Assembly (NCBI GenBank): GCA_944368775.1
Contig: CALVXB010000006.1
Span: forward strand, 8,196-72,195
Source: an uncultured Clostridia bacterium
GTDB taxonomy: Bacteria; Bacillota; Clostridia; Christensenellales; Borkfalkiaceae
Direction: 5' to 3'
Length of the DNA: 64,000 nucleotides
Both the position numbers and the translations under genes were made by a program. Shown here piece by piece: positions 1 to 20,340 of this stretch; positions within the stretch are counted from its first letter, which is position 1, and each line of letters begins with the position of its first letter. The notes below the pieces were generated by a model that had not been told where the DNA came from, made no database searches, and saw only the letters and a program-made list of their open reading frames with translations.

Positions 1-885
1 TGAAAAGAACAACATCAAATATTCTGCTAATAAATCGATAGAAGTTGTAAACACATACGATATAGAAGAAACTAAAAATGTTTCATTCGTCGTATTCAGA
101 GCAAGAGAAATCTTATCTCCACGCCTTGAAGTGTCGCCAACATAGGCAAAATAGTTTGGCTGCACTAATTTATAATTTGCTAACCCTACGCCTTCCATAT
201 CTGCTTTTGTTTCAATAAACTCTTTACTCGTTGATATTCCTCTAACAGCTTCCAACCCAAGTCCTATATCGTTTCTTCTATCGCTCAAAGATAAATATTT
301 ACCTATCGGTTCGGAAGGGAGCTTTCGACGGAGGTCTTCTATGTAGCCATCGCAGACAAGTTTTAAGTCTTCCAAGCCACGCTCGTATGCCTTTTGGTTA
401 TTCACCATACCTTGATAAATATCAACATACTTTTGCTGCACCTCTATCGGCGGCAATTCAATATCAATATCACACATTTCCTTGAATGTGAATAGTTCCG
501 TTGCGCTTCCCCATGAATTTATTCTTGCATATCTATCAAATTCGTTCCTACAAAAATAAATGTATAAGTACTGTGGCAATATTTGCGATTTATCTTTTAT
601 TTTGAATCCTATATTATTAAAAGAAAATAAAAGCGAACAATTTGTATCATTGTAAGCTAATCCTACTTTTTCACCCATTCGCGTTGTGCGTGGATTATAC
701 ACAAACTCATCGGGTTGAATAATTAAAAACTTGGCTATAACATCGGCATCAATGCTAGCTTTCGTTTTCATTATTGTTTTGTGATTTGAAACGCCGCGAA
801 CAACATCTATACCATATAGCTTATCTGTATTATATCGATTAACTTCTGAAATCAACTCCCCTAACTTATAATTACTCAATGCCAT
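1..885 (-). CDS. hsdS: Type I restriction-modification specificity subunit HsdS, partial (C-terminus lies left of the window)
   Basis: My own minus-strand translation from the ATG at 885-883 is open for all 295 codons down to position 1 (MALSNYKLGELISEVNRYNTDKLYGIDVV...). It has two TRD-like halves separated by a conserved helical spacer (ELPPIEVQQKYVDIYQGMVNNQKAYERGLEDLKLVCDGYIEDL). The start overlaps the hsdM stop by 14 nt. It is missing from the ORF track only because no stop codon lies inside the window. Confidence 0.8.
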   Translation of the reverse strand, partial: MALSNYKLGELISEVNRYNTDKLYGIDVVRGVSNHKTIMKTKASIDADVIAKFLIIQPDEFVYNPRTTRMGEKVGLAYNDTNCSLLFSFNNIGFKIKDKSQILPQYLYIYFCRNEFDRYARINSWGSATELFTFKEMCDIDIELPPIEVQQKYVDIYQGMVNNQKAYERGLEDLKLVCDGYIEDLRRKLPSEPIGKYLSLSDRRNDIGLGLEAVRGISTSKEFIETKADMEGVGLANYKLVQPNYFAYVGDTSRRGDKISLALNTTNETFLVSSISYVFTTSIDLLAEYLMLFFS

Positions 886-2500
886 AGCCGATACCTTCAA
901 ATGCCTTAATTAAAAGCTGCTGCGACTGCTTTTCCTGTTCAATAACTTCCTTCATTTCATTTTGAATACGCGCCATTTCCTTGGAGAAATCGATATCAAG
1001 GTCGTGGTCAATAAACTCAATATACTTGCTGGGCGTAAGGGTATAGTTATTTGCCCTGATGCCGTTTTCGCTTTCAAGCGTAACCGCCTTGCAGTATTCG
1101 GGCACATCTTTATACAGACTTCTGTCAGCACTCTGCCAAGCAAAATACAGGTCACGAATTTTTTCTATCTGCTTACGGGAGAGCACCGTCTTTTTCTTCT
1201 TTTTATTCTTGTCAAGCACATATTCTTCGGTGTTATCGTCCCAACGGCGCAAATCGACAAACAGCACTTCATTAGTTCTGTCACGCAACATTCTGCCGTT
1301 CAGTTCGTGAGCCTTTTTGTTATTATTCAAAATCCACAGCGTTACGGAAATATCCGTTGTATAGAACATATCGCGGGGCAAAACTATAATTGCCTCCACC
1401 TTATCCCTCTCCAAAAGCTGTTTACGGATCAGATACTCCGAATTTTCGCTGCCTTCATCGTCACCGCCAGCACCTGCGTTCAGGGCGCCGTTTGCAAGGA
1501 GGAAACCGGCAATGCCGTTGCTTTCGTCCATTTTGGAGAGCATGTGCAATATCCACGCATAGTTGGCATTGGAAACTGGCGGCATAGCCCAGCCCTTGAA
1601 TCGAGGATCATTTTTAAGTTCGTCTTCGCCGCGCCACTTTTTAAGGTTGAAGGGGGGATTCGCCATAATGTAGCGAACCTTTCTATCTTTATGTAAATCT
1701 TCTGTGAACGTGGAAGCGTTCTTTTCGCCCAAATCGCAGGAGATGCCGCGGATAGACAGATTCATTTTTGCAAGGCGCCAGGTATCGGGGTTGGATTCCT
1801 GCCCGACGACGGAAACCTTTTTGCGGCTTCCCTTGTGCTCGTCCACAAAACGCATACTCTGCACAAACATACCGCCTGAACCGCAACAAGGGTCATAGAC
1901 AACGCCGTCGAACGGCTCGATCAGCTCGGTGATGAGTTCTACCACGCAGGCAGGTGTGTAAAATTCACCGTCCTCCTTGGTGCCGGAAGCGGCATAGTTT
2001 TGCAGGAAATATTCATACACCCTGCCGATCAGGTCTTCTTCCTTGAAGTGCGCCTCGTTAATTTTATTCACCTCATCGATCAGCGATTTCATCGCGGCTT
2101 TGTCGGCATTGAGCGTTACAAACAGTTGTTGGGGCAGGGCGCCTTTCAGCGGCGGATTCTTCGCCTCAATATCTGCCATTGCTTTATCGAGTTTTACGGC
2201 TATGTCGTCTGCACTTGCATTTTTCACGATATAGTTCCAGCGGCAGTGCTCGTCCAGATAGTAGACGTTCTCTGCGTTGTAAAAGGAGACCTTCTCTAAA
2301 AACACAGGCACGTCGCCAAACTGTTCTATGATTTCTTTGCGGCGGCGTTCAAACTTTACGCTTGCAAAGTTTAAAAAGCAAAGCGAAATAATGGCATCTC
2401 TCTTCTTTTCAAGGCTACCGATCGTCCTGAGTGCCACGCGGCAATTCCACAGGACGGTTTCCAACGATTGTTCTTTTGATTTTACTTCTTTCTTAGGCAT
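872..2500 (-). CDS. hsdM: Type I restriction-modification DNA methyltransferase subunit HsdM (N6-adenine)
   Basis: 542-aa ORF. SAM-binding motif I is DPCCGSGGMF and catalytic motif IV is NPPF (IMANPPFNLKKW). The N-terminal HsdM-type helical domain is present. An hsdS follows immediately. Confidence 0.93.
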   Translation of the reverse strand: MPKKEVKSKEQSLETVLWNCRVALRTIGSLEKKRDAIISLCFLNFASVKFERRRKEIIEQFGDVPVFLEKVSFYNAENVYYLDEHCRWNYIVKNASADDIAVKLDKAMADIEAKNPPLKGALPQQLFVTLNADKAAMKSLIDEVNKINEAHFKEEDLIGRVYEYFLQNYAASGTKEDGEFYTPACVVELITELIEPFDGVVYDPCCGSGGMFVQSMRFVDEHKGSRKKVSVVGQESNPDTWRLAKMNLSIRGISCDLGEKNASTFTEDLHKDRKVRYIMANPPFNLKKWRGEDELKNDPRFKGWAMPPVSNANYAWILHMLSKMDESNGIAGFLLANGALNAGAGGDDEGSENSEYLIRKQLLERDKVEAIIVLPRDMFYTTDISVTLWILNNNKKAHELNGRMLRDRTNEVLFVDLRRWDDNTEEYVLDKNKKKKKTVLSRKQIEKIRDLYFAWQSADRSLYKDVPEYCKAVTLESENGIRANNYTLTPSKYIEFIDHDLDIDFSKEMARIQNEMKEVIEQEKQSQQLLIKAFEGIGYGIE

Positions 2501-2529
2501 TTTTGTGTAAGACTCCTAATAGTGCTTAA

Positions 2530-3573
2530 CTATTTGTTTTTCTTTGATTTAATTTTTTGATTTTGCGTATACCTTTCTTTAATTTTAACCAGCCATTCAG
2601 AGTCATCAGAATGTTCAGAAATTTCATTTTTTAATTTTTTAAACGCGAATTCAGAATACTTGTGCACCTCTGTCTTTTTAGAGGTTTGTATTTCCAAATG
2701 ATACTTCTTTTCGTCTTTAAGATGAAAATACCAAATTAAAGCAGGCGTATACTTCCCCTCAATACCAAGCATAGCCGTTAAATCTTTTTGCAGATAAGGA
2801 TGACTTACGTTAGGCTCCAAATCAGGAACGGGGACTTCCTCTGCAAGGTCTATATTGCCTGTAACCATCAATACCGGCTCTCCGCCTTCTTTTAATTGTC
2901 CCTCTTTAATAAATTTAGCCTTTTTTAAAACTTGTACAACTAATTTCTTATCAATAGCGACATCCACACCGTAAGGAGTGCTTATCCTTCCATTGCTATA
3001 ATTAATAATCCCAATATTAGGAGTATTGCCAGCGCGTATTGATTCAACTAATTTAATAATGCTGTCATGTATCCTCTTTTCCCTTTCCGCTATAATGCGA
3101 TGCATTTCAGGATACTTGATTTTTTCTGTACGCGCTTTATATCTATAAAAAATATCTCCACTACTAATTGTACCGTCAACTTTAATTGCCATAACGGGTT
3201 TATCAAGACTCTCCTCAACATAGATATATCCAACCTCACCCTTTTCACAATCAACGATGCCAATATCCCACAATATCTCGGGCGAAAATCTTGAATTTAA
3301 AATTTCCGTCATTTTTTCCACAGGCAGCTCTTTAAACGCATTATTAACACCTACAATCTCCCTTGGCTTATCTTTAACTCCAAAAATAATATATCCACCT
3401 GCATTATTAGCAAATGCGGCCATAGTTTTTGCATATTTAGCCGCATTGGAATAACTGAACGATTCTTTATATTCCAAGTCGGCTCTTTCACGGCATTTCA
3501 GCTTTCCGTTTTTATCAAAAACTAAAATATGCGACTTAATGTATTCTTCATGTTTTTGACAATTATGCAACAT
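2530..3573 (-). CDS. AlbA_2 / Schlafen-like (divergent AAA) putative DNA-binding protein, function unknown
   Basis: 347-aa ORF. The N-terminal third carries the AlbA_2 hallmark as I remember it (ADLEYKESF...AKTMAAFANNAGGYIIFGVKDKPREIVGV). I do not recognise the C-terminal ~150 aa. It lies 29 nt upstream of hsdM on the same strand. Confidence 0.65.
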   Translation of the reverse strand: MLHNCQKHEEYIKSHILVFDKNGKLKCRERADLEYKESFSYSNAAKYAKTMAAFANNAGGYIIFGVKDKPREIVGVNNAFKELPVEKMTEILNSRFSPEILWDIGIVDCEKGEVGYIYVEESLDKPVMAIKVDGTISSGDIFYRYKARTEKIKYPEMHRIIAEREKRIHDSIIKLVESIRAGNTPNIGIINYSNGRISTPYGVDVAIDKKLVVQVLKKAKFIKEGQLKEGGEPVLMVTGNIDLAEEVPVPDLEPNVSHPYLQKDLTAMLGIEGKYTPALIWYFHLKDEKKYHLEIQTSKKTEVHKYSEFAFKKLKNEISEHSDDSEWLVKIKERYTQNQKIKSKKNK

Positions 3574-3599
3574 GTTTCCCCTACCTCATATCCAGCTAA

Positions 3600-4430
3600 T
3601 TATTTCCTATAAATTTCATCCAACGTTTTGCCGGCTTTGTCTTTCCATTCCGCCCAGCCGTTGATCGAGCCGCCGAGAATAAATTCTCCGGCGCCGCTAG
3701 GTGTGTTGAATTCAAGCGTAACTTTCAAGATATACTTATCCGCCTGCTGGATGATATCCCCCTTTTCAAGCAACTCTTTTCGCTGTTTGTTATACTTTTC
3801 AAGATTTGCGGGTTTTGCAAGATTGACCTCTGAACCTTCCAGCACCTGAAATTTATCACCGTCATAAACGCCGTATGCCTTAATCCCATTGCGGGTCGTA
3901 TGGAAAACAGACGATTCATTCAGGCTTGCCCTTGCGTTATCCAGCTTATAGCCCTGCGTCGCCATGATGAACTGTATTTCCTCATATACCTCTTCAATGG
4001 AGGGGAGGTCGTACTCATCAATTTCATACTTGGGCTTGACGGAGTTTTCCACCTTATAGCGATTGGATTCATGCGCTTTGATAATGGCATATTCTTCCAG
4101 TCCGCTGATCATATCGAGAGAGAATGTCTTGCTGTCGGCAAGGAACATGATTGCCTTATTCCAAAAATCTTTGGAACGGTTATGGTCGTCCAGACGGACA
4201 ACTCCGTTGCGCGTCTGCCCTATGTAGATCTGTGCGATCTTATTTTCGTCGTTTTCATTGATGAGATAGTAAATACCAGGGCGGTTGATGCCTGTGATCT
4301 TCTTTGCCTCGGCAAGCAAAGGGCGCGGAATGACATAGGTTGTCATCGTCGATAGATGACGTCTGATCGATCGGATGCCGTCGGGCCGTCCGTTATGGTA
4401 GATGGTTTCAAGTTTCTTACTTGTTGCCAT
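3600..4430 (-). CDS. GIY-YIG nuclease domain protein with C-terminal DUF4357-like module
   Basis: I chose the ATG at 4430 as the start because AGGAGG lies 7 nt upstream; the track start at 4454 has no RBS. GIY-YIG motif: PGIYYLINE...IYIGQTRNGVVRLDDHNR. The C-terminus has an NGW-containing module (GGSINGWAEWKDKAGKTLDEIY) that I recall as DUF4357. Confidence 0.7.
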   Translation of the reverse strand: MATSKKLETIYHNGRPDGIRSIRRHLSTMTTYVIPRPLLAEAKKITGINRPGIYYLINENDENKIAQIYIGQTRNGVVRLDDHNRSKDFWNKAIMFLADSKTFSLDMISGLEEYAIIKAHESNRYKVENSVKPKYEIDEYDLPSIEEVYEEIQFIMATQGYKLDNARASLNESSVFHTTRNGIKAYGVYDGDKFQVLEGSEVNLAKPANLEKYNKQRKELLEKGDIIQQADKYILKVTLEFNTPSGAGEFILGGSINGWAEWKDKAGKTLDEIYRK

Positions 4431-4641
4431 TGCTAGCCTCCTCGTTGATGACATCCATAATGTCGCCGACGTTGCAATCGAGCAGTTTGCAGATCTTTAA
4501 GAGGACGTCCATCGAAACGGTCTCATTTTTTCCGAGTTTGGCAAGCGTCGTTGTGGAAATATCTGCTTGAAGACGCATTTGCGTCTTTGTCATTCCCTTG
4601 TCGATGAGCAGTTTCCATAACTTATTGTAGCTGATTGCCAT
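4417..4641 (-). CDS. XRE-family helix-turn-helix transcriptional regulator (74 aa), candidate controller of the operon
   Basis: MAISYNKLWKLLIDKGMTKTQMRLQADISTTTLAKLGKNETVSMDVLLKICKLLDCNVGDIM is a typical Cro/C1 HTH. Start is the ATG at 4641 with a GAGGTGA RBS. The stop overlaps the next gene by 14 nt. Confidence 0.85.
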   Translation of the reverse strand: MAISYNKLWKLLIDKGMTKTQMRLQADISTTTLAKLGKNETVSMDVLLKICKLLDCNVGDIMDVINEEASNGNK

Positions 4642-4674
4642 GCTGTCACCTCGTCCAAATCGTATTACAAAATA

Positions 4675-4712
4675 ATTATAGCATATCCGCACGGGGATTT
4701 CAATAGGATATG
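4675..4712 (-). promoter_or_regulatory. Sigma-70-type promoter of the XRE/R-M operon with a flanking inverted repeat (candidate operator)
   Basis: On the minus strand: TTGAAA (4703-4698), a 17-nt spacer, then TATAAT (4680-4675), about 35 nt upstream of the HTH start. The inverted repeat GCATATCC (4681-4688) / GGATATGC (4705-4712) brackets the -35 element and spacer. Confidence 0.7.
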
Positions 4713-4870
4713 CGAAATTGCTGATATATTATTTGAAAATAGTGCGGTATCCAACCGTATCGGATTCGATACGGTTAAATATTCCTATTCCGAAAAAGGT
4801 GGCTTTCCACCTTATCTCGGAGTAGAGGGAATAGGAGCAAATCGCAAGAGCAAAACGGGGCGCACAAAAG

Positions 4871-4896
4871 AACGGCAGCCCGTATGAGCTGCCGTT
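4871..4896 (-). terminator. Hairpin terminator downstream of the collagen-like gene
   Basis: AACGGCAGC-N8-GCTGCCGTT perfect 9-bp stem. On the minus strand it is followed by CTTTTGTG. Two further strong hairpins lie at 4753-4776 and 4783-4836 (nested). Confidence 0.55.
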
Positions 4897-4930
4897 TGAC
4901 TTTGTTCCGAATGGCTTTTTCATGTTTCCC

Positions 4931-5470
4931 TTATGTTACCTGCTCTGTCGCCCCCGTCGCGCCCGTCGCTCCCGTCGGGCCTTGTAGACCCGTGGGGCCG
5001 GCGGGGCCGGTCGCTCCTTGCGGGCCGGTCGCTCCTGTCGCGCCGGGTTGGCCGGCGGGGCCTTGAGGGCCGGTGGGGCCTGTCGCTCCTGTTGCCCCCG
5101 TCGCGCCCGTCGCCCCTGTCGCTCCGGGTTGGCCGGTGGGGCCTTGCGGGCCGGTGGGGCCGGTCGCTCCCGTTGCCCCCGTCGCGCCCGTCGCCCCTGT
5201 CGCTCCGGGTTGGCCGGTGGGGCCTTGGGGGCCGGTGGGACCTTGCGGGCCGGTCGGGCCCGTCGCTCCCGTTGCTCCGGTCGGGCCTTGGGGACCGGTG
5301 GGGCCGGTCGCCCCCGTCGCGCCCGTGGGGCCTTGCGGGCCGGTCGCTCCTTGCGGGCCGGTGGGGCCGGCGGGGCCTTGCGGGCCGGTCGGGCCGGCGG
5401 GGCCCATCGAGCCGCGCAGCAGCAGCGCCGTGCGGCAGCAGCAACAGTTCAAAAATTCTTCGTCGATCAT
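4931..5470 (-). CDS. Collagen-like triple-helix repeat protein (BclA-like), 179 aa
   Basis: After a 22-aa head ([22 protein letters not shown]), an uninterrupted Gly-X-Y run follows ([22 protein letters not shown]...), ending ...[19 protein letters not shown] lies 7 nt upstream of the ATG. An internal 81-bp direct repeat is present (the same 46-mer starts at 5100 and 5181). Confidence 0.85.
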
Positions 5471-5583
5471 TTTTCCTCCGTATGCGGGCGCTTGTGCCCA
5501 TGGCGGAAGAGTACAGACCGCGCCCGTATTACGCTCTTCCGCCCTATCATACTATGCGCGCGCCCGCCCGCGCGTGCGGGGGG

Positions 5584-6321
5584 CTATGGCTGTTTTTCGG
5601 GCGGGGTTTGCAGGCTTTTGCGGTATTCGGCGGGGCTGCGGCCGTATTTTTTGCGGAAGGTCTCGATAAAGTAGCTCACGCCGGCAAAGCCGACGTCCAG
5701 CCCGATCTCGATGATCTTTTTGTCCGTGTGCAGCAGCTCTGCCGCTTTTTTGAGGCGGTAGTCGATGAGGTATTGCACGGGCGTGGTGTGCAGATATTTT
5801 TTGAAGAGCGCCGTGCAGCTGCTCTTGCACATGGCGCCCGCGGCGGCGATCTCGCCCAGCGTCAGCTTTTCGCCGAAATGTTCCTGTATAAAACATAACA
5901 TACATTTGAGCGCGGGCAGGTCGGCAAAGCGGTCGTCCGGCTTTTTATTCTGCGGCAGCAGCGAGAGAAGCTGCGCCCAGATGCGGTACCCGGCGGACAG
6001 CGCGAGCAGAGAAAAGAGCGCCTCGCGCTCGCCGAGGTGCAGCTCGCAGACGGCGTCAAACAGCGCCGCACCCTCCGCGTCGCGCCGGAAGAGCATCAAG
6101 GGCGGCGCGCCGTCTTGCAGGATGGACAGGATATGGTTTTGCACGTCTTCGCTCCCCCGGCAGAAGGGCAGGGGATGGAGCAGCGCGCAGATAAAGTCAC
6201 ATTCCGCCTGCGTATCCGAAAACCCGTAATGCAGGCGGCGGGCGTTGACGAAGATGCCCTCTCCCGCGCGCAGGCGCACGATCTCGCCGTTGATGTTGTA
6301 GTCCATCTGCCCGCTCAACAC
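5584..6321 (-). CDS. AraC-family transcriptional regulator (cupin sensor + AraC HTH); true 5' end uncertain
   Basis: The C-terminal AraC HTH is present (GEIAAAGAMCKSSCTALFKKYLHTTPVQYLIDYRLKKAAELL...GFAGVSYFIETFRKKYGRSPAEYRK). The cupin-like sequence continues in frame upstream of the GTG at 6321 (…AADAHWHDDIELIAV-LSGQ) as far as a TAG at 6504-6502. No ATG, GTG or TTG occurs in that stretch. Confidence 0.75.
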   Translation of the reverse strand: MLSGQMDYNINGEIVRLRAGEGIFVNARRLHYGFSDTQAECDFICALLHPLPFCRGSEDVQNHILSILQDGAPPLMLFRRDAEGAALFDAVCELHLGEREALFSLLALSAGYRIWAQLLSLLPQNKKPDDRFADLPALKCMLCFIQEHFGEKLTLGEIAAAGAMCKSSCTALFKKYLHTTPVQYLIDYRLKKAAELLHTDKKIIEIGLDVGFAGVSYFIETFRKKYGRSPAEYRKSLQTPPEKQP

Positions 6322-6534: not shown

Positions 6535-7596
6535 TCATTTTTCCGAAAACAAGCGGTCAAAAAAGGCGCGGTTGTGCAGCACGCTCTCGTCCTGCGGCTT
6601 ATACCGCGCGGCGCGCTCGTTCCACGCGGCGGCGCGGCGGGCGTCGCCCAGCGCATAGCAGCACACGCACAGCCATAGGCAGGGGATAAAGCCGCCGCAG
6701 TCGGGGCGGGCGAACCCGCCGCTTCGGGTGGGGCCGACGCGCACCGCCAGCCGGTACCAAAAGGCGGCGTCCGCAAACCTGCCCGCCTCGCGCAGGCAGT
6801 CGCCCAGCGCGCAGCACGTCTCCGCCCGCGGAGGCGCGCAGGCAAAGGCGCGCAGCAGCGCCCGCTCGCAGCCCGCCCCGTCGCCGCAGGCGGCACGGCA
6901 GCGAGAGAGCGCCTCGCACGCGGCGATCTTATCCTCCGCCCACCCCTCGCCGCGCAAAAAATGTTCAAACGCGCCCGCGGCGGTGCGCGGCATGCCGCAG
7001 TCGAGCAGCTCGCGCGCAAAGTAGTAAGTCTGCCGCGCGTCGGGCGCTTCCCCGCTCGCAAAGGCGCGCGCGAAAATTTTCAGGTTGCGGAAGGGGTCGC
7101 GCTTGGGCCCGCCCAGGTGGGTGACGGCGATGTCCGCACGGGCGACGTCGCCGCCCGCGGCGATGTACTCGTGCACGCGGCCATGCCACAAGAAGCCCGC
7201 TTCTTTCCGCACGATGCGCACCCGCTCGAAGGCGAGCGCCACGCCGCCCCGCCCGTCGGGGATCTCGGTGCGCAGGCGGCAGGCGTCCGCCCGCAGCCTC
7301 TCTTTCAGCGCGCGCAGCGCCTGCGCGGCGCGGGGGAGCAGCACCTCGTCCGCGTCCAGCCACAGCAGGTAGTCGCCTTTCGCCTGCGCAAAGGCAAAGT
7401 TGCGGGCGGCGGCAAAGTCCTCCCGCCAGGCAAAGTCGAACACCTTGTCTGTAAACGACAGCGCGATCTTTTTTGTATCGTCCTTTGAGCCCGTGTCTGC
7501 GACGACGATCTCGTCGCACAGCGGCGCGGCGCTCTGCAAACACCGCCCCAGCACCGCCCCCTCGTCGCGCACGATCATGCAGAGAGAAAGAGTCAT
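6535..7596 (-). CDS. Family-2 glycosyltransferase with C-terminal TPR-like repeats
   Basis: N-terminal GT-A fold motifs: LSLCMIVRDEG...IVVADTGSKDDT...LWLDADE (DxD). The C-terminal half is Ala/Arg-rich helical repeats that look TPR-like. Confidence 0.8.
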   Translation of the reverse strand: MTLSLCMIVRDEGAVLGRCLQSAAPLCDEIVVADTGSKDDTKKIALSFTDKVFDFAWREDFAAARNFAFAQAKGDYLLWLDADEVLLPRAAQALRALKERLRADACRLRTEIPDGRGGVALAFERVRIVRKEAGFLWHGRVHEYIAAGGDVARADIAVTHLGGPKRDPFRNLKIFARAFASGEAPDARQTYYFARELLDCGMPRTAAGAFEHFLRGEGWAEDKIAACEALSRCRAACGDGAGCERALLRAFACAPPRAETCCALGDCLREAGRFADAAFWYRLAVRVGPTRSGGFARPDCGGFIPCLWLCVCCYALGDARRAAAWNERAARYKPQDESVLHNRAFFDRLFSEK

Positions 7597-7610
7597 AAAA
7601 AAACTCCCTC

Positions 7611-8143
7611 ACAAAATTTCTTTTGAGCTGACAAAAGAAATTTTCGTGATTTTGAGGGCTCTGCCCTCTGCGGCGCGCTTTTTAAGGGCACGCCAAAGTA
7701 TGCGCGCCGCATTCACCCGCTGAGGCGCTCACGCGCAAATAGGGGTGCGCTAACGCAGAAGCGTGGTTCTGCTTGCGCGAATATTTTAATGAATTAATTG
7801 AAAAAGCGGAAATCGCAATTTTGCCTTTTTCCCCCAATTTGCCGTGAGGCTTTTGGGAAGAGGGTGAAGCCGCGCGATTTCTTAGAAGAGCGCTCTCAAA
7901 TATCGCGCGGCGAGGGAGAAAACGCTGCTGCGTATCATAAGGGCTCCCAAAAAGTAACTCGCCGCGTTGCGGCGAGAGCTATAGCCCGCCGAACTTTTTG
8001 GGAAGAGGAGGAGCCGCCGAGCACGCCGCGCGGGCAGCCGATGGATGCCCGCGGGCAGGCAAAGGCGAGCGACGACGAGCACAGCGGTGTCTCCCTTAAA
8101 TCGGAAGATTTCGCAGGCAGCAGCCTGCCGAGAAATCTCCGAG
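7611..8143. repeat. Mosaic nested-hairpin intergenic repeat locus L1
   Basis: Contains hairpin A (7613-7644), GAGGGCTCTGCCCTC (7654-7668), the GCGCGCCGCATTCACCCGCTGAGGCGC module, hairpin G (about 7799-7850), module D (7995-8079, + orientation) and palindrome F (8098-8143). All of these recur elsewhere in the window. Confidence 0.9.
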
Positions 8144-8186
8144 CCCTACATCCTATGGAAATTTTTCTCCATCGGTGCGATTTTTC

Positions 8187-8216
8187 TTTACTTTTACGGA
8201 AAAATTTTGCTATAAT
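8187..8216 (+). promoter_or_regulatory. Putative promoter of tRNA-Arg
   Basis: TTTACT (8187-8192), 18-nt spacer, then TGc-TATAAT (extended -10; TATAAT at 8211-8216). It lies about 40 nt upstream of the tRNA 5' end. Confidence 0.5.
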
Positions 8217-8254
8217 AGGGGTCACAGCAGGGGCAAGCGCCCCATATAGGCCAT

Positions 8255-8331
8255 GTGTCCGTAGCGCAATTGGATAGAGTGACAGCCTCCGACGCTGTAG
8301 GTTCCGGGTTCGATTCCCGGCGGGCACACCA
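8255..8331 (+). tRNA. tRNA-Arg (anticodon CCG), CCA encoded
   Basis: Hand-folded cloverleaf. Acceptor stem GTGTCCG/CGGGCAC (one G-U pair). Anticodon stem ACAGC/GCTGT with loop CTCCGAC (anticodon CCG). T arm CCGGG-TTCGATT-CCCGG. Discriminator A followed by CCA. Confidence 0.9.
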
Positions 8332-8335
8332 AAAA

Positions 8336-8369
8336 GGCGGGAGCAGGTTTTACCTGCCCTCGCCTTTTT
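8336..8369 (+). terminator. Intrinsic terminator after tRNA-Arg
   Basis: GGCGGGAGCAGGT-TTTA-ACCTGCCCTCGCC stem-loop followed by TTTTT. Confidence 0.75.
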
Positions 8370-8517
8370 GTGTGTGCCCGCCTTAGGAACGAACTGCGCG
8401 CGATGTTAGAGCGGGCGAGAATGTATAGGTTTGGCCGCGCGCAGTTCGTGCTCTGGCGCAACTTGCCGCGCCGAGCTCCGCCGCTTTTTTTAGCGGTTTC
8501 GGCGGTTTCCGCGGCGG

Positions 8518-9003
8518 CTCGTCGTCGCTCGCCGCCGTTAGCCCGCGGGCAGCCGTTGGCCGCCCGCGCGGCAGCTTGGCGGCGGCTCCTCCTTTTTTGT
8601 TCACAAAATTTCTTTTGAGCTGACAAAAGAAATTTTCGTGATTTGAGGGCTTTGCCCTCTGCGGCGCGCTTTTTGAGGGCACACTGTTAAAATGCGCGCC
8701 GCATTCACCCGCTGAGGCGCTTCACGCGCAAATAGGGGACGCTCCGTCAAAATTGCGATTTTGACTCGCGCGTTTATTTTTAATTAAATTTTTGCGCAAG
8801 CAAAGTCGCGCCTTTGCGCCAGCGCCCTCAATTTGCCGTTAGGCTTAAGGGGGAAAGGTGAAGCCGCCGCGCGCTATTAAAGGTGTGCACTTAAACGCGC
8901 GGCGGCGAGGAAAACCCCGCGGATAGCGCTTGCGCGTGCCCGCGGGGTTTTCTTCAAAATCGGAAGAATTTGTTTTAACAGCTTAAAACAAATTCTCCGA
9001 GCT
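8518..9003. repeat. Mosaic nested-hairpin intergenic repeat locus L2
   Basis: Module D in reverse orientation (8518-8598). Hairpin A (8605-8636) plus the B/C modules, almost identical to 7611-7745. The TTGACTCGCGCG module is present. A palindrome F variant lies at 8956-9001. The segment 8905-9001 is the reverse complement of 55938-56035. Confidence 0.9.
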
Positions 9004-20059: not shown

Positions 20060-20340
20060 TTCAAATCGCAACGACCGGGAAGAGTAGCGCCGATACGGGA
20101 GGCACAGAGAGCGGGGGCAGGCTGAAAGCCCCGCCCTTCCGCCCGCGCGAAAAACGCCCGCGAGCGGCGTCGGCGAACGGGCTTTGCCTCATTAGCCGCC
20201 GACGGGTGCGCCCGTTACCGCGCGCCCCCTTATGCAGAGGGGAGAGGTCTCGCCGCACGGCGGGATAAATTCGGGTGGCACCGCGGAAAGTCGCTCTTTT
20301 CGCCCCGAGCACGGGGAGAAAAAGGGGCGGCTCTTTTTTT
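20060..20340 (+). promoter_or_regulatory. T-box riboswitch leader (probable Asn specifier) with terminator
   Basis: Stem I 5' elements: GCAACGACCGGGAAGAGTAG (GA/K-turn plus AGTA), AG bulge CACAGAGAGCGG, and a distal GGCTGAAAG loop. The conserved T-box sequence AAATTCGGGTGGCACCGCGG lies at 20267-20286. A terminator helix followed by TCTTTTTTT lies at about 20301-20340. AAC triplets at 20153-20155 and 20176-20178 are specifier candidates. Confidence 0.8.

What the first reader, a model, noticed from the sequence alone, without database searches (positions are those of the whole stretch)
1..4712. AT-rich island: one XRE-led operon joining type I HsdM/HsdS with a GIY-YIG-DUF4357 nuclease and an AlbA_2/Schlafen-like protein
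Seen in sequence: composition changes abruptly near 4.7-4.9 kb. Hand-counted 60-nt lines left of this point give 28-47 % G+C, against about 70 % in the rest of the window.

The island carries five same-strand genes with almost no intergenic space:
- HTH to GIY-YIG: 14-nt overlap
- GIY-YIG to AlbA_2: 26-nt gap
- AlbA_2 to hsdM: 29-nt gap
- hsdM to hsdS: 14-nt overlap

A single consensus promoter (TTGAAA-17-TATAAT) lies upstream of the first gene.

Established knowledge: type I R-M loci are hot spots for embedded defence genes. GIY-YIG and Schlafen/AlbA_2 folds recur in anti-phage systems.

Inference: this is a horizontally acquired composite defence module. No HsdR is visible, and the window ends inside hsdS, so the GIY-YIG protein could either be an accessory effector or replace HsdR as the nuclease. 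To my knowledge this exact five-gene architecture has not been characterised.
Basis: partly seen in the sequence, partly recalled or inferred. Interest (0 to 1): 0.72.

Follow-up and report, generated by a model that had tools for sequence, protein, structure and literature searches.

The report
Mobile type I restriction operon with passengers
The AT-rich island is the front end of a widely travelling type I restriction-modification operon; related contigs carry its normal cutting enzyme (HsdR) just past the window edge, and two extra, untested defence-type nucleases are slotted in as swappable cassettes, a pattern already catalogued.

Summary
Window 1-4712 is 41.6 % G+C against 65.6 % for the rest. 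It carries five tightly packed minus-strand genes (XRE/HTH_26, GIY-YIG+DUF4357, AlbA_2/Schlafen, hsdM, cut hsdS) behind one near-consensus promoter. Every stated gap and overlap is exact.

In every related contig that extends far enough past hsdS, including ones with identical proteins, a full 993-1052-aa hsdR follows hsdS. One to three further embedded genes lie in between. So "GIY-YIG replaces HsdR" is very unlikely.

- The locus is a modular scaffold. The slot between the GIY-YIG gene and hsdM holds AlbA_2, a TIR cassette, or a helicase plus a different type I system.
- The GIY-YIG protein is PADLOC candidate PDC-S14, with catalytic residues intact. Its DUF4357 tail is RAMA-like, a domain predicted to read DNA modification.
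- The AlbA_2 protein keeps the Schlafen RNase catalytic triad. Its family sits almost only beside methyltransferases of type I, IIS, IIG and III R-M systems.

Both associations are already published as predictions, and neither has been tested. I rate this a new member of a known kind, of moderate interest.

The parts
1..885 (-). hsdS, 5' part (295 codons, ORF open at the window edge)
   Evidence: Pfam Methylase_S. PADLOC Specificity_I 4.9e-98. 100 % aa identity to the HsdS N-terminus of L027. The ATG at 885 overlaps the hsdM stop by 14 nt.
872..2500 (-). hsdM, type I N6-adenine DNA methyltransferase (542 aa)
   Evidence: N6_Mtase 8.8e-88 plus HsdM_N. PADLOC MTase_I 9e-117. The DPCCGSGG and NPPF motifs are visible in the translation.
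2530..3573 (-). AlbA_2/Schlafen-like protein (347 aa): N-terminal Schlafen nuclease-like domain plus a C-terminal helix/beta-hairpin domain that looks like a winged helix
   Evidence: SLFN_AlbA_2 1.2e-21. The AF2 model matches the SLFN13/14/5/11 and SAMD9 tRNase domains, best E=3e-6. Invariant E29/E34/D68 align with the SLFN13 catalytic triad.
3600..4430 (-). GIY-YIG nuclease with C-terminal DUF4357 (RAMA-like) domain, 276 aa; PADLOC PDC-S14
   Evidence: PDC-S14 1.3e-66, full length. DUF4357 1.4e-17 and GIY-YIG 5.9e-5. Y54, Y69, G71, R79, E112 and N129 are at least 90 % conserved in 65 homologues. AF2 pLDDT 94.7.
4417..4641 (-). XRE-type HTH_26 protein (74 aa), first gene of the operon
   Evidence: HTH_26 3.4e-19. 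VanU-like 2e-24, below cut-off. Related HTH genes sit directly upstream of hsdM in L034, L047, L052, L059 and L070.
4675..4703 (-). Promoter TTGAAA-17-TATAAT with extended -10 TG
   Evidence: 11/12 match, the best in 1-5600. Conserved in all close relatives.
4681..4713 (.). Perfect 8-bp inverted repeat GCATATCC-N17-GGATATGC bracketing the -35 box; candidate operator for the HTH protein
   Evidence: Conserved in relatives. No binding data and no covariation, so this is inference only.
4748..4836 (.). Two conserved hairpins in the leader between the upstream terminator and the promoter
   Evidence: Inverted repeats I1, I3 and I6. Present in relatives. Function unknown.
4871..4896 (-). Intrinsic terminator of the upstream collagen-like gene
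   Evidence: 11-bp stem with 7 GC pairs, followed by a T-run.
4931..5470 (-). Collagen-like (G-X-T)n gene; its 3' end is part of the DNA shared with other hosts, so it marks the real junction zone
   Evidence: Collagen repeat 1.3e-26. Homology with contigs from other contexts extends to 5040-5317. All contexts end in ...TEQVT*. In L014 only a start-less remnant is left.

Best explanation
This is the promoter-proximal half of a mobile, single-promoter type I restriction-modification operon whose HsdR gene lies just beyond the window edge. The operon acts as a scaffold for interchangeable accessory defence cassettes.

Shown:
- The gene order is HTH, GIY-YIG/DUF4357, AlbA_2, hsdM, hsdS.
- In relatives this continues with zero or one AbiJ-NTD3 kinase, a KAP NTPase (PDC-S49) in most relatives, hsdR, and a DUF1016/YhcG nuclease (PDC-S02).
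- In some contigs a NikA-like gene and a relaxase follow.

Inferred roles:
1. The small XRE protein is the native leader or regulator of this hsdMSR family. It probably represses its own promoter through the inverted repeat around the -35 box.
2. HsdM2S1 methylates host DNA, and HsdR restricts unmethylated DNA in the usual way.
3. The GIY-YIG/DUF4357 protein is a self-contained DNA endonuclease. Its RAMA-like C-terminal domain reads the modification state of DNA and directs the GIY-YIG domain, much as a type IV (modification-dependent) enzyme does. This would cover phages that escape type I restriction by modifying their DNA.
4. The AlbA_2 protein is a Schlafen-type endoribonuclease with a DNA-binding tail. 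It is held inactive until infection and then cuts tRNA or rRNA as an abortive-infection back-up.

The accessory genes are separable passengers, not subunits of the type I enzyme.
For: Architecture and HsdR. More than 25 related contigs, many encoding identical proteins, carry hsdR of 993-1052 aa with all five HsdR domains.

Single transcription unit: one 11/12 promoter, 14-nt overlaps, 26-29-nt gaps, and no credible internal terminator.

Cassette exchange with conserved flanks:
- In L001, L002 and L027 a TIR cassette replaces AlbA_2 next to a 98-100 % identical HsdM.
- In L015, L018, L019 and L022 the identical HTH and GIY-YIG pair precedes a helicase and a type I system with 24 % identical HsdM.

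Mobility: at least seven flanking contexts, with island G+C of 39-42 % against flanks of 45-66 %. NikA and a relaxase lie downstream, and serine recombinases lie upstream in L001.

The HTH as native leader: HTH lies directly before hsdM in five loci of the same hsdR family.

GIY-YIG/DUF4357:
- PDC-S14 at 1e-66 with catalytic residues conserved.
- In relatives the DUF4357 residues also hit RAMA, up to 1.8e-16.
- The domain occurs in tandem and fused to HEPN_Swt1 and GmrSD_C.
- The literature reports it fused to GmrSD and McrB (PMC4619093, PMC11090510).
- RAMA is predicted to discriminate m6A and is found fused to URI, HNH, REase and McrB domains (PMC4738411).
- Homologues at 27-44 % identity again sit beside N6A methyltransferase or type I loci.

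AlbA_2:
- The fold matches SLFN13, SLFN14 and the SAMD9 tRNase.
- The E-x4-E...D triad is invariant in 37/37 sequences.
- 52 of 59 metagenome loci have a DNA methyltransferase gene within 1.1 kb downstream.
- Four of the five exceptions examined are AlwI-type IIS, Eco57I-type IIG or other type I systems.
- Prokaryotic Schlafen proteins cleave tRNA in defence (PMC13462974).
Against: - The window itself stops inside hsdS, so HsdR in this genome is inferred from relatives. The nearest are L003 (99.7 % nt identity over 4.65 kb) and L027 (95 % nt identity over hsdM-hsdS, with the visible HsdS residues 100 % identical).
- No member of the GIY-YIG/DUF4357 (PDC-S14) family or of this AlbA_2 family has been tested, as far as the searched literature shows.
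- The window protein's own RAMA hit is only E=0.053.
- Fold and profile searches gave no solved-structure relative for DUF4357.
- RAMA's reading of m6A is itself a prediction.
- The AlbA_2 model is only moderate (pLDDT 73, middle third disordered).
- The strict placement of AlbA_2 next to methyltransferase genes could mean functional coupling rather than independent cargo.
- The proposed operator has no covariation support.
Confidence: 0.62

Rival explanations
1. The AlbA_2/Schlafen protein, and perhaps the GIY-YIG/RAMA protein, is not independent cargo. It is a guard coupled to the R-M system in the manner of PrrC with EcoprrI. It stays latent while the R-M enzyme works and is unleashed when a phage anti-restriction protein blocks it, or when restriction produces DNA ends.
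For: The family is almost exclusively R-M-adjacent and usually lies immediately 5' of the methyltransferase gene, often with overlapping or abutting coding regions. The catalytic triad is intact. PrrC sets the precedent for a tRNase embedded in a type I locus (PMC12707154). PMC13462974 speculates that R-M-linked Schlafens sense products of DNA cleavage.
Against: - The partner methyltransferases belong to three unrelated classes (HsdM gamma, Mod beta, D12 alpha) and four R-M types. One conserved protein-protein docking surface is therefore unlikely.
- In the window family the gene is freely swapped for a TIR cassette while HsdM stays 98-100 % identical.
- There is no experimental trigger.
Confidence: 0.2
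2. The AlbA_2 protein with its winged-helix-like tail, together with the XRE protein, is a transcription regulator of the methyltransferase and restriction genes. It would be a controller-protein analogue that times expression after transfer, not a nuclease effector.
For: The gene holds a fixed position just upstream of methyltransferase genes across R-M types. The C-terminal domain has a helix-helix-helix-beta-beta pattern typical of winged helices. Bacterial AlbA_2 proteins are often annotated as DNA-binding proteins or regulators. The XRE gene is first in the operon, with an inverted repeat over its promoter.
Against: The three acidic residues that form the Schlafen RNase active site are invariant in all 37 aligned homologues, which a pure DNA-binding role would not require. 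The operon functions in relatives without AlbA_2 (L001, L002, L027). At 347 aa the protein is far larger than known controller proteins.
Confidence: 0.1
3. The GIY-YIG/DUF4357 protein is the restriction nuclease of this system. It would use HsdM/HsdS for target recognition in place of, or alongside, HsdR.
For: GIY-YIG restriction enzymes exist (established knowledge, e.g. Eco29kI and Cfr42I). The gene is co-transcribed with hsdMS. RAMA domains are associated with adenine methylases (PMC4738411).
Against: - A canonical full-length hsdR is present in every relative that extends far enough.
- The 100 % identical GIY-YIG protein accompanies a second type I system with 24 % identical HsdM, and many different HsdS variants.
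- Homologues occur after hsdR, divergently, or alone in defence islands.
Confidence: 0.04
4. The HTH and GIY-YIG pair is a selfish, homing-type module. Its double-strand breaks promote recombination, which explains why the cassette break points lie just downstream of it.
For: GIY-YIG is a classic homing-endonuclease fold, and weak structural hits to phage GIY-YIG proteins were found. Homology between cassette variants breaks within or right after the GIY-YIG gene, at window 3596, 3505 and 3832.
Against: No significant similarity to homing endonucleases (all E>0.001). There is no intron or intein context. The family is defined by a modification-reader-type domain shared with GmrSD, McrB and HEPN defence proteins.
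Confidence: 0.04

Closest known systems
Type I R-M loci with embedded accessory defence genes (EcoprrI-PrrC; the 'guilt-by-embedding' PDC candidates of PADLOC)
   Same: An hsdM-hsdS-...-hsdR operon is interrupted and flanked by non-R-M defence genes. The GIY-YIG/DUF4357 protein matches PDC-S14 over its full length. In relatives the KAP NTPase matches PDC-S49 and the DUF1016 protein matches PDC-S02.
   Different: The embedded RNase candidate has a Schlafen fold, not the ABC-ATPase plus anticodon-nuclease of PrrC (no PrrC hit). Two accessory genes sit upstream of hsdM behind an XRE leader rather than between hsdS and hsdR. None has been tested.
RAMA-domain nuclease fusions (Iyer, Zhang and Aravind 2016, PMC4738411) and type IV enzymes carrying DUF4357 (GmrSD, McrB homologues; PMC4619093, PMC11090510)
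   Same: A nuclease domain (URI, i.e. GIY-YIG) is joined to a RAMA/DUF4357 module and encoded next to an N6-adenine methyltransferase.
   Different: Here the reader domain is a single copy behind a GIY-YIG core plus a conserved roughly 45-aa N-terminal domain. The window protein reaches Pfam RAMA only at E=0.053. The substrate and the dependence on modification are unknown.
Prokaryotic Schlafen defence nucleases (Cash; 'Cluster 4' R-M-associated Schlafens with unknown C-terminal domains, PMC13462974) and eukaryotic SLFN11/13/14 and SAMD9
   Same: The Schlafen/AlbA_2 fold, a conserved E-x4-E...D catalytic triad, and a defence-locus context.
   Different: The protein has no CARF/Csx15, ATPase, NACHT or Ig-like sensor domain. 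Instead it has a short winged-helix-like tail. The activation signal is unknown.
Controller (C) proteins of type II R-M systems
   Same: A small XRE-family HTH is encoded first in the operon, with an inverted repeat over its own promoter.
   Different: This is a type I context. The repeat is an 8-bp pair 17 nt apart rather than a characterised C-box. There is no evidence of delayed-restriction control.

Membership tests
Type I restriction-modification system | HsdM: gamma-class N6-adenine methyltransferase with an HsdM_N domain and the AdoMet (DPxxGSGG) and NPPF motifs | tested here: met
   N6_Mtase 8.8e-88, HsdM_N 1.4e-12. The motifs VYDPCCGSGG and ANPPF are present in the translation.
Type I restriction-modification system | HsdS specificity subunit with two target-recognition domains | tested here: inconclusive
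   Only the first 295 residues lie inside the window. They match PADLOC Specificity_I at 4.9e-98 over model positions 8-301 of 384. Relatives have 362-379-aa HsdS.
Type I restriction-modification system | HsdR helicase-nuclease encoded in the same locus | not testable with these tools
   The window ends in hsdS. All related contigs that extend far enough carry a 993-1052-aa hsdR. The source contig itself could not be fetched.
PADLOC PDC-S14 (GIY-YIG + DUF4357 candidate defence protein) | Full-length match to the PDC-S14 profile | tested here: met
   PDLC04925 at 1.3e-66, residues 1-274 against model 13-295 of 301.
PADLOC PDC-S14 (GIY-YIG + DUF4357 candidate defence protein) | Demonstrated anti-phage activity | not testable with these tools
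   No experimental report found. PDCs are predictions (bioRxiv 10.1101/2024.01.29.577857).
GIY-YIG nuclease superfamily | Catalytic residues: GIY Tyr, YIG Tyr/Gly, Arg, Glu, Asn | tested here: met
   Y54, Y69, G71, R79, E112 and N129 are each at least 90 % conserved in 65 homologues of 26-69 % identity.
RAMA-domain / type IV modification-dependent nucleases | Presence of a RAMA domain | tested here: inconclusive
   The window protein gives RAMA E=0.053 on the DUF4357 residues. Homologues hit RAMA on the same residues at 1e-6 to 1.8e-16.
RAMA-domain / type IV modification-dependent nucleases | Cleavage depends on DNA modification | not testable with these tools
   Requires biochemistry.
Schlafen (SLFN/AlbA_2) endoribonucleases | Schlafen core fold | tested here: met
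   Pfam SLFN_AlbA_2 1.2e-21. Foldseek hits to SLFN13, SLFN14, SLFN5, SLFN11, SLFN12 and SAMD9, E from 3e-6 to 5e-3, probability 0.99-1.00.
Schlafen (SLFN/AlbA_2) endoribonucleases | Catalytic triad E-x4-E...D | tested here: met
   E29, E34 and D68 are invariant in 37 sequences. They align with the E/E/D positions of rat SLFN13, chain 5yd0, with the spacing of the published E205/E210/D248 triad (residue numbers from my own knowledge).
Schlafen (SLFN/AlbA_2) endoribonucleases | tRNA/rRNA cleavage activity | not testable with these tools
   Requires biochemistry.
PrrC/RloC anticodon nucleases embedded in type I R-M | ABC-ATPase-like N-domain plus C-terminal anticodon-nuclease domain (sequence membership) | tested here: not met
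   None of the five window proteins hits a PrrC model in PADLOC. The AlbA_2 protein has a different fold. The similarity is one of position and predicted logic only.
R-M controller (C) proteins | Small HTH protein with a palindromic operator at its own promoter | tested here: inconclusive
   A 74-aa HTH_26 protein. A perfect 8-bp inverted repeat brackets the -35 box. It is conserved only among near-identical relatives, and the diverged L001 leader has no clear equivalent.

The most novel reading that the evidence does not exclude
The 340-aa Schlafen plus winged-helix proteins could be a dedicated, R-M-type-independent guard class. They are encoded next to N6-adenine methyltransferases of type I, IIS, IIG and III systems. 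In this reading they sense failure or activity of restriction (anti-restriction proteins, or DNA ends made by the restriction enzyme) and then cleave tRNA. That would be a Schlafen-based functional analogue of PrrC, evolved independently and far more widespread. In the same operon, the GIY-YIG/RAMA nuclease would read the adenine-methylation state of DNA.
Probability: 0.2. Interest if true: 0.65.

Novelty: new member of a known kind. Interest (0 to 1): 0.4.

Why it matters
The locus is a clean natural example of a restriction operon used as a plug-in board. Flanks that are identical or nearly so carry different accessory cassettes, and the same accessory gene heads unrelated type I systems.

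It also offers ready-made comparisons for testing two common but untested candidate defence families:
- PDC-S14, the GIY-YIG/RAMA nuclease;
- the R-M-linked Schlafen proteins.

The second matters more. This survey shows the family is tied to R-M systems of four types. Its mechanism would connect bacterial restriction to the Schlafen and SAMD9 tRNase branch of animal antiviral immunity. Otherwise the finding is an ordinary mobile type I R-M island.

Tried and rejected
- Foldseek of the whole GIY-YIG/DUF4357 model against PDB and BFVD gave no hit with E<=0.001, only weak GIY-YIG-domain matches.
- A profile of the C-terminal domain against PDB sequences gave only spurious short matches and did not find MPND/RAMA. 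phmmer of the full protein against PDB gave nothing.
- megablast of the island against PLSDB plasmids and INPHARED phages gave no match.
- The genome-contig scan with HsdR found only one close relative, L027 (96 %). The rest are generic members of the hsdR family, which I used as a background survey.
- I looked for a tRNA, integrase or att site at the right edge. The only tRNA, Arg-CCG at 8255-8331, lies 2.8 kb beyond the collagen-like gene, and the window has no integrase near the island. I therefore propose no integration site.
- I rejected the G+C step as the island boundary (see the observation check) and rejected GIY-YIG as a replacement for HsdR.
- Covariation of the operator between the window and L001 leaders was too ambiguous to use.
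- The source contig of the window was not returned by the exact-protein look-ups.

Full report
OBSERVATION. The composition profile shows 0.34-0.52 G+C in every 400-nt window up to about 4.8 kb, then 0.69-0.82. The means are 41.6 % for 1-4712 and 65.6 % for 5471-64000.

The five genes are all on the minus strand:
- HTH 4641..4417
- GIY-YIG/DUF4357 4430..3600
- AlbA_2 3573..2530
- hsdM 2500..872
- hsdS 885..<1, open at the window edge

Pfam confirms every domain call. The promoter TTGAAA-17-TATAAT lies at 4703-4675, with a TG extended -10 element. It is the only 11/12 match in the region, although the overall number of promoter-like matches is no more than chance. No credible minus-strand terminator lies between the genes. 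A strong terminator (4896-4871) closes the upstream collagen-like gene.

WHAT LIES BEYOND THE WINDOW EDGE. Exact-sequence look-ups of the window's HsdM, AlbA_2 and GIY-YIG proteins returned more than 25 gut-metagenome contigs. In every contig that extends far enough the operon continues in the same way. After hsdS (362-379 aa) come an optional AbiJ_NTD3-protein-kinase gene and, in most contigs, a KAP-family NTPase. Then follow a complete hsdR and a DUF1016/YhcG PD-(D/E)xK protein.
- The hsdR is 993-1052 aa and carries HSDR_N, ResIII, SWI2_SNF2, T1R_D3-like and T1RH-like_C domains.
- In L006, L010 and L012 a NikA-like gene and a relaxase come next.
- L003 is 99.7 % identical to window 290-4941.
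- L027, a Candidatus Coproplasma stercoripullorum MAG, has an HsdS N-terminus 100 % identical to the 295 residues visible in the window. It is followed by the kinase, KAP, hsdR (96 %) and DUF1016.

HsdR in the window's own genome is therefore inferred, not seen, but the inference is strong. PADLOC profiles label the extra genes as catalogued embedded-gene candidates: PDC-S49 for KAP, PDC-S02 for DUF1016, and Stk2/PD-T4-6-like for the kinase.

MOBILITY AND THE TRUE BOUNDARY. The module is about 40 % G+C. It occurs next to the following neighbours:
- SpoIIE/purB/purA
- polyamine-synthesis genes and a sigma factor
- a GH3 and McrBC-like cluster
- a DNA-alkylation-repair gene
- DUF3737 and a glycosyltransferase
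- a phage-like region with a holin and two large serine recombinases
- in the window, an AraC-type regulator and a glycosyltransferase

Flanks range from 45 to 66 % G+C. No match was found in PLSDB or INPHARED.

The DNA shared between these contexts does not stop at the G+C step. It continues through a conserved 230-nt leader and terminator into the 3' end of a collagen-like (G-X-T)n gene that always ends in ...TEQVT*. The N-termini and lengths of this gene differ between hosts. In L014 and L016 only a start-less remnant is left. The junction therefore lies inside the repeat array, near window 5040-5317.

A MODULAR SCAFFOLD. Two slots vary while their flanks stay nearly identical.

The first slot lies between the GIY-YIG gene and hsdM. 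It holds one of three things:
- AlbA_2, as in the window and most relatives.
- A three-gene cassette of a 157-aa protein, a ThsB-type TIR protein and a 258-aa protein with a weak TIR_2 hit. This occurs in L001, L002 and L027, where HsdM is 98-100 % identical.
- An 820-aa DEAD/ResIII helicase followed by a different type I system in the order hsdR-hsdM-DUF1016-hsdS. This occurs in L015, L018, L019 and L022.

The HsdM of that second system is only 24 % identical to the window's, yet the GIY-YIG protein in front of it is 100 % identical to the window's.

The second slot lies between hsdS and hsdR. It varies in the kinase, KAP and small ORFs.

Among about 80 loci of the wider hsdR family (59-77 % identity) the plain hsdM-hsdS-hsdR layout dominates. 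A related small HTH gene sits directly before hsdM in five of them. This suggests the XRE protein is the native leader and the two nucleases are insertions behind it.

THE GIY-YIG/DUF4357 PROTEIN. It matches PADLOC PDC-S14 over its full length (1.3e-66). PDCs were defined as genes found embedded in type I R-M, BREX and DISARM loci (bioRxiv 10.1101/2024.01.29.577857).

The family is large: 3585 clusters at 50 % identity with E<=1e-3. In 65 homologues of 26-69 % identity the GIY-YIG catalytic residues (Y54, Y69/G71, R79, E112, N129) are at least 90 % conserved. So is the C-terminal N-G-W-x-x-W motif. The AlphaFold model is confident (pLDDT 94.7). It shows three parts: a small N-terminal beta domain, the GIY-YIG core, and a roughly 100-residue C-terminal alpha/beta domain.

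In relatives the DUF4357 residues also hit Pfam RAMA, up to 1.8e-16. The domain occurs in up to four tandem copies and is fused to HEPN_Swt1 and GmrSD_C nucleases. The window protein's own RAMA hit is only E=0.053.

Published analyses report the following:
- DUF4357 is fused to GmrSD type IV enzymes (PMC4619093, PMC5714182).
- RAMA is a predicted m6A-discriminating domain fused to URI (GIY-YIG), HNH, REase and McrB modules beside N6A methyltransferases (PMC4738411).

More distant homologues are again R-M neighbours:
- L089 (31 %): HTH, GIY, hsdM.
- L114 (44 %): HTH_3, GIY, N6_Mtase, S.
- L116 (41 %): a small NikA-like gene, GIY, hsdM.
- L057: directly after hsdR.
- pBUN2 of Bacteroides uniformis and pSR56 of Salinibacter ruber.
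- L115: the gene stands alone in a defence island with Mrr-nSTAND3 and GmrSD.

I read the protein as a self-contained endonuclease directed by a modification-reading domain, that is, type IV-like. This step is inference. Whole-model fold searches and a profile search of PDB gave nothing for DUF4357.

THE AlbA_2 PROTEIN. The AlphaFold model is moderate (pLDDT 73). The N-terminal domain (1-130) and the C-terminal domain (255-347) are well predicted, and the region between them is mostly poor. The N-domain matches rat SLFN13, human SLFN14, SLFN5, SLFN11 and SLFN12, and the SAMD9 tRNase domain (best E=3e-6).

In 37 homologues of 49-76 % identity, E29, E34 and D68 are invariant. In the phmmer alignment to 5yd0 they fall on the E-x4-E...D positions whose spacing equals that of the SLFN13 catalytic triad E205/E210/D248 (residue numbers from my own knowledge). 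The C-terminal domain has a helix-helix-helix-strand-strand pattern suggestive of a winged helix.

Neighbourhoods are striking. Five homologues checked individually all lie in SNF2-DUF4391-AlbA_2-Mod-Res loci or HTH-AlbA_2-Mod-TIR-Res loci. I then surveyed 80 metagenome loci of 45-100 % identity:
- 52 of the 59 loci with at least 1.5 kb downstream have a DNA methyltransferase gene starting within 1.1 kb, and 34 have one within 150 nt.
- 50 of the 67 loci with enough upstream sequence have DUF4391 directly upstream.

Of the seven apparent exceptions I examined five, and four of those are also R-M systems. L151 and L168 have AlbA_2, a D12 N6A methyltransferase and an AlwI endonuclease. L131 has HTH, AlbA_2, hsdR and hsdM. 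L152 has two Eco57I-like type IIG enzymes before AlbA_2. In L192 the one downstream ORF tested gave no Pfam match. L121 pairs the GIY-YIG (79 %) and AlbA_2 (77 %) genes in front of a third type I family, next to AbiE and an integrase. A Psychrobacter plasmid has hsdMSR followed by a 36 %-identical homologue. The sample is redundant, so the fractions are descriptive rather than statistical.

[quoted passage not shown] The same paper shows that a CRISPR-linked Schlafen (Cash) cleaves tRNAs.

MOST LIKELY MECHANISM. One transcript starts from the promoter at 4675-4703. The XRE protein probably autoregulates through the perfect 8-bp inverted repeat GCATATCC-N17-GGATATGC that brackets the -35 box (inference).

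HsdM2S1 methylates the host genome, and the HsdR encoded downstream restricts unmethylated DNA (established type I biology). The GIY-YIG/RAMA-like nuclease adds a second DNA-level barrier aimed at DNA whose modification state differs from the host's. The Schlafen-type protein adds an RNA-level, abortive back-up.

The accessory genes behave as separable cassettes. The identical GIY-YIG protein serves two unrelated type I systems. AlbA_2 is swapped for TIR genes without any change in HsdM, and it accompanies methyltransferases of three different classes. This argues against fixed subunit-type docking. It does not exclude a looser guard relationship of the PrrC kind (PMC12707154), which I keep as the main rival and as the most novel reading.

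COMPARISON AND NOVELTY. The kind of system is known: type I R-M loci with embedded defence genes. EcoprrI-PrrC is the classic case, and the PADLOC embedded-gene survey is the systematic one. The GIY-YIG/DUF4357 protein is a member of PDC-S14 by profile. The AlbA_2 protein is a Schlafen-fold protein with the catalytic triad, but it is not a PrrC relative. The HTH protein resembles a controller protein only in outline.

This analysis adds four points:
- HsdR is present in relatives, so the nuclease-replacement idea falls.
- The cassette-exchange structure has identical flanks.
- The junction lies inside a collagen-like repeat gene.
- This Schlafen family is tied to R-M systems of types I, IIS, IIG and III.

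None of these takes the locus outside known categories, and nothing here is experimentally characterised. I rate it a new member of a known kind, with interest 0.4.

CAVEATS.
- HsdR in this genome is inferred from relatives.
- The functions of both accessory proteins rest on domain and motif conservation and on context.
- RAMA's reading of modification is itself a prediction.
- The neighbourhood counts come from redundant metagenome contigs.
- The host organism was not identified. A T-box leader at 20062-20310 and SpoIIE next to the island in related contigs point to Bacillota.

Noticed in passing
window 4931-5470 (-); also L004 7916-8641, L019 6996-7841, L014 9344-9511: A collagen-like (G-X-T)n gene with a Cys-rich N-terminus, always ending ...TEQVT*, sits at the island junction in every host context. 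Its length varies from about 30 to 281 codons, and the N-termini differ between hosts. In L014 and L016 only a start-less 3' remnant abuts the neighbouring gene. The break in homology between contexts falls inside the repeat array, so the repeats may serve as the recombination substrate for island exchange.
   Followed up: partly
L024 4140-14206; L107-L113; most of L123-L197: A conserved five-gene arrangement: SNF2 helicase (about 1075 aa), DUF4391, AlbA_2/Schlafen, a type III Mod methyltransferase and a type III Res. It is often preceded by an HTH_26 gene and is the main home of the AlbA_2 family (50 of 67 loci). DUF4391 has no PADLOC match. The SNF2 protein hits PADLOC 'C3a139 HKD+Snf2'.
   Followed up: partly
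L001 6464-8248; L002 989-2773; L027 2260-4128: An alternative cassette occupies the AlbA_2 slot: a 157-aa protein with no Pfam hit, a 170-aa ThsB-type TIR protein, and a 258-aa protein with a weak TIR_2 hit. It resembles Thoeris but has no recognisable ThsA.
   Followed up: no
L151 1780-6620; L168 4950-9795: AlbA_2 homologues lie immediately upstream of a 627-aa tandem D12-class N6-adenine methyltransferase and an AlwI-family type IIS endonuclease. This extends the Schlafen-R-M link to type II systems.
   Followed up: partly
L121 411-10351: The order is integrase, a 195-aa ORF, AbiEii, GIY-YIG (79 %), AlbA_2 (77 %), hsdR (919 aa, EcoEI type) and hsdM (474 aa). The two accessory genes travel as a pair in front of a third type I family, without the XRE leader.
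   Followed up: partly
L001 1322-4977: In one context the operon lies directly downstream of a holin-like gene and two large serine recombinases. This suggests carriage on a prophage or a similar integrative element.
   Followed up: no
window 4748-4836: Two conserved hairpins lie between the collagen-gene terminator and the operon promoter: 15-nt arms at 4748-4781, and a nested 9-nt plus 7-nt stem at 4783-4836 with a T-run. Their function is unknown; they could be a second terminator or insulator, or a recombination site.
   Followed up: no
window 20062-20310 (+) and 8255-8331 (+): A T-box leader (104 bits) and a tRNA-Arg(CCG) gene. The T-box supports a Bacillota host. The tRNA is 2.8 kb from the island junction and shows no sign of being an attachment site.
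   Followed up: no
window 7400-9000: A second, milder dip in G+C (0.51-0.62) surrounds the tRNA-Arg gene in an otherwise 65-70 % G+C region. I did not examine it further.
   Followed up: no
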